A DNA stretch of 64,000 nt from Escherichia phage UPEC06. Where the stretch lies: sequence record MW250786; one strand, written 5' to 3'. This document shows positions 22,178 to 22,836 of this stretch, piece after piece (the first letter of the stretch is position 1; the number at the start of each line of letters is the position of its first letter). A program made the position numbers and the translations under genes. The notes under the pieces were generated by a model. The model had not been told where the DNA came from and did no database searches. It saw nothing but the letters and a program-made list of their open reading frames with translations.

Positions 22178-22537
22178 ATGTTACCCGCTAAAAAATATTT
22201 CATTTACGCAATGATCGGTGTTGCGTTATTTACGTCTGGAAAACTGTATCTCGGACACGTCGAGTCTGTTGGATATGACAAAGGCTACGATGTTGCAAAC
22301 ACGGCTTGGATAAAGAAAGCTACTGAGTACAAAGGAAAGCTTGACTCTACATTGGAAGAGAATAAGAGATTGAATGAAGAACTTTCTTATGCAAATGCAA
22401 AACGGATCATCGCTGAGGAAAAATTACGTGATGAAGTAGAGGCAATGAGAATCGACTATGCAAAATCTAAAAAGGGGCAAGAAATCTTTATGGATGATGA
22501 GATAGTTGATATCTATAACAAATCCCTGGGGGAATGA
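22178..22537 (+). CDS. putative i-spanin (Rz-like)
   Basis: SD AAAGGAGG before ATG 22178; N-terminal TM helix then charged coiled-coil region; overlaps the downstream lipoprotein gene. Confidence 0.5.
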   Translation: MLPAKKYFIYAMIGVALFTSGKLYLGHVESVGYDKGYDVANTAWIKKATEYKGKLDSTLEENKRLNEELSYANAKRIIAEEKLRDEVEAMRIDYAKSKKGQEIFMDDEIVDIYNKSLGE

Positions 22538-22836
22538 TGAAGAAGATTATCGCCGGAATTATTCTTTGCTTTTCTCTTGTTGGTTGCCAAAGTAAAGAAA
22601 TTTGTGGGCCTACTGAAGAAGTTAAGATAGAAAAGCTGATCGAAAAGCCGGATCTTGAACTTATGAAGAAAGAAGAACCTAAAATGACTCTGGAAAAACG
22701 CTCTGCAAAGACAACTGTTGCTGACGTTCTTAGTCATAACAATCTTCGTGCTGCAAGAATAGAAAGACGTGTTGAAGGATTACAGACCTACGTTTGTAAT
22801 ATTTTTAAAGAAAATCCACCAGAGTTCTGCAAATAA
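22534..22836 (+). CDS. putative o-spanin (Rz1-like outer-membrane lipoprotein)
   Basis: Signal peptide with lipobox LVGC; gene overlaps the i-spanin stop. Confidence 0.5.
   Translation: MMKKIIAGIILCFSLVGCQSKEICGPTEEVKIEKLIEKPDLELMKKEEPKMTLEKRSAKTTVADVLSHNNLRAARIERRVEGLQTYVCNIFKENPPEFCK

What the first reader, a model, noticed from the sequence alone, without database searches (positions are those of the whole stretch)
22178..22836. Spanin pair located directly after the tRNA cluster, detached from any recognisable holin or endolysin
An i-spanin-like protein (N-terminal TM plus coiled coil) and an o-spanin-like lipoprotein (LVGC lipobox) with overlapping genes sit between the tRNA cluster and the large terminase. 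No lysozyme or amidase-like gene is detectable in the 64 kb.
Basis: partly seen in the sequence, partly recalled or inferred. Interest (0 to 1): 0.3.

Follow-up and report, generated by a model that had tools for sequence, protein, structure and literature searches.

The report
Known spanin pair beside phage terminase
Two small overlapping genes just upstream of the large terminase gene of an rV5-like E. coli phage very probably encode the usual two-protein device (spanin) that breaks the bacterial outer membrane at lysis; both their identity and their odd position far from the other lysis genes are already published for this phage group, so the finding is correct but ordinary.

Summary
Genes at 22178-22537 (119 aa) and 22534/22537-22836 (100/99 aa) overlap by 4 or 1 nt. 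They lie between tRNA-Gln (ends 22060) and the large terminase (starts 22937), and a terminator-like hairpin flanks them on each side. They match the PHROG families named "Rz-like spanin" (E 8e-20 and 5e-17). The second protein has a lipobox (LVGC) with Gln at +2.

The window is a Vequintavirinae (genus Septuagintavirus) myovirus, 98.6% identical to phage vB_EcoM-LTH01 over the 3 kb compared. The same order, tRNA cluster, i-spanin, o-spanin, TerL, recurs in Certrevirus, Seunavirus and Henunavirus. It is described in print by Kongari 2018, Buttimer 2020, the KEC4 paper (2026) and the HIDEN-SEQ preprint.

No peptidoglycan hydrolase or holin family was found in the 64 kb. In LTH01 the T5-type M15 endolysin lies 27 kb from the spanins, which would place it about 5 kb beyond the window's left edge. 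A SleB-like hydrolase lies further away.

Caveats: the i-spanin membrane segment is weak here (Kyte-Doolittle 1.39), and a coiled coil was not demonstrated. One detail stands out: the o-spanin has Cys17/87/98 and a C-terminal "CK", exactly as in T4 PseT.2, without detectable homology.

Verdict: already known, low interest.

The parts
21563..22060 (+). Distal part of the tRNA cluster (Tyr, Pro, Gly, Gln) that precedes the pair. tRNA-Met lies at 20318-20392 and an extra tRNA-like match at 20220-20298.
   Evidence: ARAGORN; Rfam.
22109..22140 (+). Terminator-like hairpin (AGCCTCCC...GGGAGGCT, 8 pairs of which 6 are G-C) followed by TTTTTTATTT. It would end the tRNA transcript just upstream of the pair.
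   Evidence: Consensus scan. The function is inferred.
22150..22158 (+). Possible extended -10 element TGATAAAAT with no good -35. It is a candidate promoter for the pair.
   Evidence: Read from the sequence. The promoter scan did not call it. This is speculative.
22165..22171 (+). Shine-Dalgarno sequence AAGGAGG, 6 nt before the ATG at 22178.
   Evidence: Sequence.
22178..22537 (+). i-spanin gene, 119 aa. It has two Lys at positions 5-6, a hydrophobic segment Y7-G21, a highly charged (40%) helical periplasmic part with no Cys, and a conserved C-terminal motif D106-x3-V110-D111-x-Y113-N114-x-S116-L117.
   Evidence: phrog_4297 at E 7.7e-20; alignments; hydropathy; AlphaFold2 helices 3-96 and 107-116; 8 synonymous to 1 non-synonymous changes against LTH01.
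22534..22836 (+). o-spanin gene, 100 aa from ATG 22534 or 99 aa from ATG 22537. It has a signal peptide and lipobox LVGC, Gln at +2, and an 83-aa mature lipoprotein. The N-terminal ~40 mature residues are predicted unstructured and a C-terminal helix follows. Counting from the second Met, cysteines fall at 23, 87 and 98, and the protein ends in CK.
   Evidence: phrog_1267 at E 5.3e-17; lipobox; alignment with invariant C17, N68, N69, L82, Q83, Y85, N88, F90; AlphaFold2 helix at fusion residues 186-217.
22844..22881 (+). Terminator-like hairpin (11 pairs) with a T-run, between the o-spanin gene and TerL. phiTE carries an annotated terminator at the equivalent place.
22937..24424 (+). Large terminase subunit, the downstream neighbour.
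   Evidence: phrog_979 at E 1e-210; Pfam Terminase_6N and Terminase_6C.

Best explanation
The two genes encode a two-component spanin of the 'separated' (T4-like) gene architecture, and the pair belongs to the spanin family of V5-like (Vequintavirinae) phages.

Inferred mechanism, taken from the lambda Rz/Rz1 and T4 PseT.3/PseT.2 paradigms:
- The 119-aa protein is anchored in the inner membrane by its N-terminal segment and extends a helical, highly charged domain into the periplasm.
- The 99/100-aa protein is exported, lipidated on Cys17/18 and sorted to the outer membrane, since it has no Asp at +2.
- The conserved C-terminal parts of the two proteins bind each other, so the complex spans the periplasm through the peptidoglycan mesh.
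- Once the endolysin, encoded about 27 kb away, has destroyed the peptidoglycan, the complexes are free to move and collapse. This fuses or disrupts the inner and outer membranes and completes lysis.
- The Cys87/Cys98 pair probably forms disulfide bonds that stabilise o-spanin dimers, as in T4.

The pair is probably a small transcription unit of its own, or the start of the terminase operon, placed between the tRNA cluster and TerL. This position is ancestral to the subfamily.

What is shown: the sequence features, the family membership and the synteny. What is inferred: topology, complex formation, disulfides, transcription and lytic function.
For: - Full-length matches to PHROG families named as spanins: phrog_4297 at E 7.7e-20 and phrog_1267 at E 5.3e-17. 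Homologues from CR3 and 4MG fall in the same two families at E 1e-23 to 1e-51.
- Lipobox LVGC with a non-Asp +2 residue. The lipobox Cys is invariant in 10 homologues.
- The N-terminal hydrophobic segment, preceded by basic residues, aligns with clear transmembrane segments of homologues (Kyte-Doolittle 1.81-2.34).
- The strongest conservation is at the C-terminus of the i-spanin and in the C-terminal helix of the o-spanin. These are the regions that interact in known spanins.
- The gene order tRNA cluster, i-spanin, o-spanin, TerL, with a 1-4 nt overlap, recurs in four genera and in IMG/VR contigs.
- RefSeq annotates the homologues as 'Rz-like spanin'.
- Literature: Kongari 2018 lists (CR3, CR9, phiTE) and the rv5 group among separated two-component spanins. 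Buttimer 2020 describes the pair next to TerL. The KEC4 paper covers this genus. [quoted passage not shown]
- Size, overlap and cysteine layout mirror the experimentally validated T4 pair.
- Purifying selection acts on the i-spanin gene (8 synonymous to 1 non-synonymous changes).
Against: - No member of this family has been tested experimentally, as far as the papers read here show.
- Neither protein matches any Pfam or NCBIfam model at the thresholds used, so there is no link to the lambda Rz/Rz1 families.
- No homology to T4 PseT.3/PseT.2 is detectable beyond the signal peptide.
- The membrane segment of this phage's i-spanin is short and weakly hydrophobic: Kyte-Doolittle 1.39, and a summed Hessa scale (values recalled from memory) of +3.6 kcal/mol over 17 residues. 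No dedicated predictor (TMHMM, SignalP, LipoP) was available.
- A coiled coil was not supported by a crude heptad test.
- The fused AlphaFold2 model has low overall confidence (pLDDT 61, pTM 0.40), and its coordinates could not be inspected for contacts.
- The window contains a second lipobox protein (59682-59981), so a lipobox alone is not specific to spanins.
Confidence: 0.86

Rival explanations
1. The pair is an envelope complex of an inner-membrane protein and an outer-membrane lipoprotein with a role other than lysis. Examples would be superinfection exclusion or blocking DNA entry, as with the T5 Llp or T4 Sp/Imm type functions. It would be expressed with the packaging genes.
For: - The pair is unlinked to any holin or endolysin.
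- No functional test exists for this family.
- The o-spanin gene evolves faster than its partner (6 synonymous to 6 non-synonymous changes), as receptor-blocking lipoproteins often do.
- The phage encodes other lipoprotein and Imm-like membrane proteins.
Against: - Both proteins fall into PHROG families named as spanins, and the homologous 4MG i-spanin weakly matches five further i-spanin families.
- The obligate adjacency and co-conservation of the two genes over four genera, the conserved C-termini and the T4-like cysteine pair all fit a spanin.
- T4 shows that functional spanins can be unlinked from the holin and the endolysin.
- No other spanin candidate was seen in the window, and the published annotation of the genus names this pair as its spanin system.
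Confidence: 0.09
2. The 119-aa protein is the missing small terminase subunit or another packaging accessory, because a small helical protein directly upstream of TerL is the classical TerS position. On this view the lipoprotein gene is an unrelated neighbour.
For: - Its position lies immediately upstream of TerL.
- No TerS is annotated in these genomes.
- The protein is predicted to be mostly helical.
Against: - It has an N-terminal hydrophobic anchor with basic residues on the N-terminal side, and no DNA-binding motif.
- It matches spanin families and no terminase family.
- The lipoprotein gene, not this gene, abuts TerL.
- A terminator-like hairpin separates the pair from TerL.
Confidence: 0.02
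3. The two ORFs are not real genes, and their features arose by chance in an intergenic region.
For: They are short ORFs in an AT-rich region, and the promoter scan found no convincing promoter for them.
Against: HMM E-values of 1e-17 to 1e-20; a strong ribosome-binding site; conservation at the protein level down to 23-44% identity across genera; a synonymous-biased substitution pattern in the first gene.
Confidence: 0.01

Closest known systems
Two-component spanins of Certrevirus phages CR3, CR9 and phiTE ('separated' family in Kongari et al. 2018; CB7_252/253 in Buttimer et al. 2020), and the identical genes of Septuagintavirus phages LTH01, A73, A5-4, A7_1, W70 and KEC4
   Same: - The PHROG families are the same (4297 and 1267).
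- Identity is 37% and 44% to CR3, and 98-99% and 93-96% to the Septuagintavirus records.
- The position after the tRNA cluster and before TerL is the same, as is the 1-4 nt overlap.
- The lipobox, the C-x10-C pair near the o-spanin C-terminus and the cysteine-free i-spanin are all shared.
   Different: - The i-spanin is a few residues shorter and its membrane segment is weaker (Kyte-Doolittle 1.39 against 1.81-1.94).
- There is one extra periplasmic Cys (Cys23) in the o-spanin.
- The o-spanin ends directly in CK rather than CGKGK or CEKGK.
Phage T4 PseT.3 / PseT.2, an experimentally validated separated two-component spanin
   Same: - Sizes are almost identical: 117 and 99 aa against 119 and 99/100 aa.
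- Both pairs overlap by 4 nt.
- The i-spanin has no Cys in either case.
- The o-spanin has lipobox LVGC with Cys17, then Cys87 and Cys98, and a C-terminal CK.
- The o-spanin has a C-terminal helix: predicted here, and reported as predicted for T4.
- Both pairs are unlinked to the holin and the endolysin.
   Different: - No sequence similarity is detectable beyond the signal peptide: blastp finds nothing, hmmsearch and hhalign align only the lipobox region.
- The PHROG families differ (739 and 812).
- The genomic neighbourhood differs: alc and pseT in T4, tRNAs and TerL here.
- The window pair works like the T4 pair but is not a member of its family.
Phage lambda Rz / Rz1
   Same: The inferred topology is the same: an inner-membrane-anchored helical protein plus a small outer-membrane lipoprotein, with disulfide-capable cysteines. 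The inferred role in outer-membrane disruption is also the same.
   Different: - In lambda, Rz1 is embedded within Rz in the +1 frame, and both are part of the S-R-Rz/Rz1 lysis cassette.
- Mature Rz1 is described as smaller and lacking predicted helical structure. By general knowledge it is about 40 aa and proline-rich.
- Here the genes are sequential, the mature o-spanin has 83 aa with a predicted helix, and there is no match to any Pfam family.
Spanins of Seunavirus (4MG, GAP31, PVP-SE1) and Henunavirus (pEp_SNUABM_01)
   Same: The PHROG families, the synteny and the conserved C-terminal motifs are the same.
   Different: - These pairs have no periplasmic cysteine in either subunit. That places them among the roughly 4% of two-component spanins that lack them.
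- Their i-spanins are 134 aa.
- An extra gene of about 475-494 aa separates the tRNAs from the pair.

Membership tests
Two-component spanin (general definition: Summer et al. 2007; Kongari et al. 2018) | The i-spanin has a single N-terminal transmembrane domain, with the N-terminus in the cytoplasm and the rest in the periplasm. | tested here: inconclusive
   The segment Y7-G21 follows K5 and K6. Its best Kyte-Doolittle 19-residue mean is 1.39, below the 1.6 cut-off, and the summed Hessa scale is positive. The same alignment columns are clear transmembrane segments (1.81-2.34) in all homologues. AlphaFold2 makes the segment helical. No TMHMM-type predictor was available.
Two-component spanin (general definition) | The o-spanin has an outer-membrane lipoprotein signal: a signal peptide, a lipobox with Cys, and no Asp at +2. 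| tested here: met
   MKKIIAGIILCFSLVGC matches the PS51257-type pattern and the +2 residue is Gln. The Cys is invariant in 10 homologues, whose +2 residues are Q, S, R, A or E.
Two-component spanin (general definition) | The two genes are adjacent on one strand, with the o-spanin gene embedded in, overlapping or directly following the i-spanin gene. | tested here: met
   The ATGATGA junction gives a 4-nt or 1-nt overlap. This is the 'separated' class, as in T4.
Two-component spanin (general definition) | The periplasmic domain of the i-spanin is alpha-helical or coiled coil. | tested here: inconclusive
   AlphaFold2 predicts helices at 3-96 and 107-116 with pLDDT 48-79. The domain is 40% charged and has no Pro. 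The heptad score is not above shuffles (118 of 500).
Two-component spanin (general definition) | At least one periplasmic cysteine in either subunit (true of about 96% of such spanins). | tested here: met
   The o-spanin has Cys23, Cys87 and Cys98 and the i-spanin has none. Zero cysteines in the i-spanin with two in the o-spanin is the commonest combination.
Two-component spanin (general definition) | The pair is required for outer-membrane disruption and complements lambda Rz/Rz1 mutants. | not testable with these tools
   This needs an experiment. No published test of this family was found in the papers read.
V5-like phage spanin family (PHROG 4297 and 1267; the CR3/CR9/phiTE group of Kongari 2018) | A significant full-length profile match for both proteins. 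| tested here: met
   E 7.7e-20 over residues 4-118 and E 5.3e-17 over residues 1-94. tblastn to CR3 and phiTE gives E 1e-14 to 1e-18.
V5-like phage spanin family | A conserved position between the tRNA cluster and the large terminase gene. | tested here: met
   It is also stated in PMC7344957 and in the HIDEN-SEQ preprint.
Lambda Rz / Rz1 families (Pfam Phage_lysis and Rz1) | A match to the Pfam models. | tested here: not met
   No Pfam family matched either protein at E <= 0.1, and no NCBIfam family did.
T4 PseT.3 / PseT.2 families (PHROG 739 and 812) | Sequence or profile similarity outside the signal peptide. | tested here: not met
   blastp found no hits. hmmsearch and hhalign align only the lipobox region (probability 47%) or nothing at all (probability 0.7%). 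T4 falls in other PHROGs.
Classical lysis cassette (holin, endolysin and spanin adjacent) | A holin and an endolysin gene next to the spanin genes. | tested here: not met
   The neighbours are tRNAs and TerL. No lysis family occurs elsewhere in the window. In LTH01 the M15 endolysin is 27 kb away and the SleB-like hydrolase about 57 kb away.

The most novel reading that the evidence does not exclude
The o-spanin of the Septuagintavirus/Certrevirus lineage and T4 PseT.2 share an exact layout: lipobox LVGC with Cys17, then Cys87 and Cys98, and a C-terminal CK in a 99-aa precursor. Yet they show no detectable homology and sit in different PHROGs. Sister genera in the same PHROG (Seunavirus, Henunavirus) have lost every periplasmic cysteine.

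If the resemblance reflects a shared or convergent disulfide-isomerisation mechanism, this one spanin family contains natural cysteine-containing and cysteine-free variants. Those variants could show how the supposedly general disulfide requirement of two-component spanins is bypassed. A second, weaker point is that this phage's i-spanin has an unusually short and weak membrane anchor.
Probability: 0.3. Interest if true: 0.3.

Novelty: already known. Interest (0 to 1): 0.1.

Why it matters
It matters little beyond correct annotation. In LTH01 and A7_1, and as listed in the searches of A73, W70 and A5-4, the two genes are labelled 'hypothetical protein', so the calls made here would improve those records. 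The dispersed lysis genes are a reminder that spanins cannot be found by looking next to the endolysin, and that an apparently missing endolysin in a partial window can simply lie beyond its edge. The holin of this phage group is still not identified. The T4-like cysteine layout, and its loss in sister genera, could serve spanin specialists as a small natural experiment.

Tried and rejected
1. **Endolysin inside the window.** I looked for one by tblastn with CR3 gp087 (SleB-like), CR3 gp210 and the LTH01 M15 peptidase. There were no hits in the window.

2. **PHROG scan of the window.**
   - I scanned about 95 window ORFs, concatenated into polyproteins.
   - The only lysis-category hits outside the pair fell on 43729-44607. 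I rejected these because Pfam identifies a Dit-like tail protein there.

3. **Pfam scan of large tail proteins.** I scanned the three giant fibre proteins, the tape measure, the hub and the spike. No hydrolase domain was found.

4. **Homology to T4 PseT.3/PseT.2.** I tested this with blastp, hmmsearch, hhalign and PHROG membership and rejected it.

5. **Heptad periodicity.** A crude test for a coiled coil was not significant.

6. **AlphaFold2 model of an i-spanin, linker, mature o-spanin fusion.**
   - The model used a paired 10-sequence alignment.
   - It gave only secondary structure and moderate local confidence (pLDDT 61, pTM 0.40).

7. **IMG/VR scan for more relatives.** It returned only 9 loci, mostly the same reference phages.

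8. **Side lead: a possible small terminase at 20576-20956.**
   - The profile search of solved structures found nothing.
   - The AlphaFold2 model was poor (pLDDT 58) and Foldseek gave no match below E = 2.
   - The lead is left open.

9. **Rfam scan of 19500-23100.** It found only tRNAs and sub-threshold noise.

Full report
**What is in the sequence**

The stretch 22178-22836 holds two same-strand ORFs. The first runs from ATG 22178 to TGA 22535-22537 and encodes 119 aa. An AAGGAGG site at 22165-22171 precedes it. The second starts at ATG 22534 or at the next codon, ATG 22537, so the junction ATGATGA gives a 4-nt or 1-nt overlap. It ends at 22836 and encodes 100 or 99 aa. Upstream lie tRNA-Tyr, -Pro, -Gly and -Gln (21563-22060). 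Downstream lies the large terminase (22937-24424; phrog_979 at E 1e-210). A consensus scan finds terminator-like hairpins with T-runs on both sides of the pair, at 22109-22130 and 22844-22871. phiTE carries an annotated terminator at the equivalent downstream position. A possible extended -10 element, TGATAAAAT at 22150-22158, is the only promoter-like feature I could see between the upstream hairpin and the start codon. That reading is speculative.

**What the phage is**

The window is 98.6% identical over 3 kb to Escherichia phage vB_EcoM-LTH01, and TerL matches A7_1, A73, W70 and A5-4 at 98%. These are Vequintavirinae (V5-like myoviruses) of the genus Septuagintavirus.

**Identity of the two proteins**

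- Both match, over their full length, PHROG families named "Rz-like spanin": phrog_4297 at E 7.7e-20 and phrog_1267 at E 5.3e-17.
- Neither matches any Pfam or NCBIfam model, so they are not members of the lambda Rz/Rz1 families.
- tblastn against 50,697 phage records finds the first protein in 41 records and the second in 39. Those listed are large (~140-155 kb) V5-like myoviruses, apart from one partial 49-kb record. RefSeq records name both genes "Rz-like spanin".

**Signal features**

- The second protein begins M(M)KKIIAGIILCFSLVGC. This is a textbook lipobox with Gln at +2, which predicts sorting to the outer membrane. The Cys is invariant in ten homologues from four genera and from IMG/VR contigs.
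- The first protein has K5 and K6 followed by a hydrophobic stretch, Y7-G21. Its best 19-residue Kyte-Doolittle mean is only 1.39. All homologues score 1.81-2.34 and T4 PseT.3 scores 2.24.
- The membrane anchor is therefore supported by alignment to clear transmembrane segments. On formal hydropathy grounds it is marginal in this phage, and no dedicated predictor was available.
- The rest of the i-spanin is 40% charged, has no Pro and no Cys, and ends in the family's most conserved motif (D106, V110, D111, Y113, N114, S116 and L117 are invariant).
- An AlphaFold2 model was built from a paired 10-sequence alignment of i-spanin, linker and mature o-spanin. It predicts a long helix at residues 3-96 and a short C-terminal helix at 107-116 in the i-spanin.
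- In the o-spanin the model predicts an unstructured N-terminal ~40 mature residues and a C-terminal helix over the conserved NNL...LQxYxxNxF region. Local pLDDT is 72-80 in both C-terminal parts, but the overall values are low (pLDDT 61, pTM 0.40).
- I could not access the coordinates, so I cannot say whether the two parts touch. A crude heptad test did not support a coiled coil.

**Synteny**

The order tRNA cluster, (0-1 gene), i-spanin, o-spanin, TerL recurs widely, always with a 1-4 nt overlap:

- LTH01
- CR3
- phiTE
- 4MG
- GAP31
- pEp_SNUABM_01
- four further IMG/VR contigs

**Where the rest of the lysis machinery is**

- PHROG scans of about 95 window ORFs, Pfam scans of candidates and of the large tail proteins, and tblastn with three Vequintavirinae peptidoglycan hydrolases found no endolysin and no holin family in the 64 kb.
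- The one apparent exception, phrog_1517 and phrog_380 ("endolysin") on 43729-44607, is a Dit-like tail protein by Pfam (E 3e-28).
- In LTH01 a 127-aa Peptidase_M15_4 protein of the T5 L-alanyl-D-glutamate peptidase type (E 6e-15) lies at 100104-100487, next to phoH. That is 27 kb from the spanins and on the opposite strand.
- The window's left end aligns to LTH01 at about 94,946. The gene would therefore lie about 5.2 kb outside the window, assuming synteny holds.
- This protein is 99-100% identical in all five Septuagintavirus records and 83.5% identical in phiTE and CB7.
- CR3 carries a different hydrolase at the same locus, between the homologue of the upstream gene and phoH. That is a local non-orthologous replacement.
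- A SleB-like Hydrolase_2 protein (E 2e-23) lies at LTH01 15396-15911 and is followed by a 70-aa ORF. The homologous hydrolase in CR3 (gp087) has a hydrophobic N-terminus and is adjacent to a gene annotated 'membrane protein'.
- Buttimer et al. proposed the equivalent small protein in CB7 as a class II holin candidate.

**Comparison with what is known**

- Kongari et al. 2018 list (CR3, CR9, phiTE) and the rv5/4MG/PVP-SE1 groups among "separated" two-component spanins.
- Buttimer et al. [quoted passage not shown]
- The 2026 KEC4 paper says the same of Septuagintavirus.
- The finding is therefore correct and already published.

**A detail worth recording**

T4 PseT.3/PseT.2 is the validated model for unlinked, separated spanins. 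It has proteins of 117 and 99 aa, a 4-nt overlap, no Cys in the i-spanin, and an o-spanin with lipobox LVGC (Cys17), Cys87, Cys98 and a C-terminal CK. Both cysteines are essential in T4. Numbered from its second Met, as LTH01 annotates it, the window o-spanin has 99 aa, LVGC with Cys17, Cys87, Cys98 and a C-terminal CK.

Despite this, blastp, hmmsearch and hhalign find nothing beyond the signal peptide, and T4 sits in other PHROGs. The pair works like the T4 pair but is not a member of its family. Within the V5-like family itself, the Seunavirus and Henunavirus pairs have no periplasmic cysteine at all. That puts them among the roughly 4% of unexplained cysteine-free spanins.

**Most likely mechanism**

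This is inferred from the lambda and T4 paradigms. The inner-membrane-anchored helical i-spanin and the outer-membrane lipoprotein bind through their conserved C-terminal regions and span the periplasm. After the distant M15 endolysin, and perhaps the secreted SleB-like enzyme, has removed the peptidoglycan, the complexes fuse or disrupt the two membranes. The Cys87/Cys98 pair probably forms stabilising disulfides.

**Rivals**

- A non-lytic envelope function such as superinfection exclusion: about 0.09.
- A packaging role for the first protein: about 0.02.
- Chance ORFs: about 0.01.

**Verdict**

Novelty is "already known" and interest is about 0.1.

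Noticed in passing
window 20576-20956 (+): A small basic protein (RKRGRP motif, phrog_3330, no Pfam hit) sits inside the tRNA cluster about 2 kb upstream of TerL. It is 73% identical to CR3 gp261, far more conserved than the spanins. No small terminase is annotated in these genomes, so it is a possible TerS candidate. The AlphaFold2 model was poor (pLDDT 58; three helices at 16-74) and neither the PDB sequence search nor Foldseek gave a match.
   Followed up: partly
window 21184-21561 (+): A PD-(D/E)XK endonuclease gene (Pfam PDDEXK_5, E 2e-21) lies immediately before tRNA-Tyr. LTH01 lacks the central 288 nt (window 21209-21495) and keeps only the two ends. This suggests a decaying or mobile endonuclease in the tRNA region.
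   Followed up: partly
window 20220-20298 (+): Rfam reports a tRNA match (35.8 bits, gathering score 29) that ARAGORN did not report. It may be a sixth tRNA, which would fit the six tRNAs reported for the related phage KEC4.
   Followed up: no
window 51547-52650 (+): Three consecutive hydrophobic, putative membrane proteins are embedded in the tail-fibre module and conserved in position in CR3 (gp030-032). They are a 121-aa protein with an N-terminal hydrophobic segment and a charged C-terminal part (an i-spanin-like layout), a very hydrophobic 152-aa protein, and an 86-aa protein with two hydrophobic stretches that is 83% identical to CR3 gp032 (phrog_1322). No function is known. They are candidates for the unidentified holin or antiholin, or for exclusion functions.
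   Followed up: partly
window 58914-59981 (-): This stretch holds a second lipobox protein (59682-59981, MKRLIILCILLLVGC). It also holds a 195-aa protein with a weak N-terminal Imm_superinfect-like match (Pfam E 6.5e-4, below the curated cut-off; phrog_1039 E 2e-4) and collagen-like repeats. Both are likely superinfection-exclusion genes, and they show that a lipobox alone does not mark a spanin.
   Followed up: partly
window 43729-44607 (+): The protein after the tape measure matches PHROG families named 'endolysin' (phrog_1517 at E 8e-12, phrog_380 at E 2e-4), but Pfam calls it a Dit-like tail protein (E 3e-28). It is an annotation trap, not a lysis enzyme.
   Followed up: yes
window 29947-33747 and 34460-36058 (+): Two very long collagen-repeat (G-x-y) fibre proteins are present. 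The larger has a fibritin C-terminal domain (Pfam Collagen at E 5e-44 and 2e-47; Fibritin_C at E 2e-10).
   Followed up: partly
L009, L010, L011, L016-L019 (spanin loci of Seunavirus and Henunavirus phages): These homologous spanin pairs have no periplasmic cysteine in either subunit, unlike the Septuagintavirus and Certrevirus pairs in the same PHROGs. In L017-L019 the +2 residue of the lipoprotein is Glu.
   Followed up: partly
L020 2707-3114 (IMG/VR metagenomic contig, 136 kb): A distant i-spanin homologue (C-terminal LDDDFVDIYNNSLG) is followed by a 185-aa non-lipoprotein ORF. No o-spanin ORF of 60 aa or more is visible downstream, and there is no tRNA or TerL nearby. The o-spanin may be smaller, embedded or elsewhere.
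   Followed up: no
L006 5686-7256 against L005 14883-16689 (LTH01 and CR3, outside the window): At the same locus, between a conserved 136-aa gene and phoH, LTH01 has a T5-type M15 peptidase while CR3 has an unrelated 197-aa protein annotated 'endolysin'. This looks like an in-place swap of the endolysin gene within the subfamily.
   Followed up: partly
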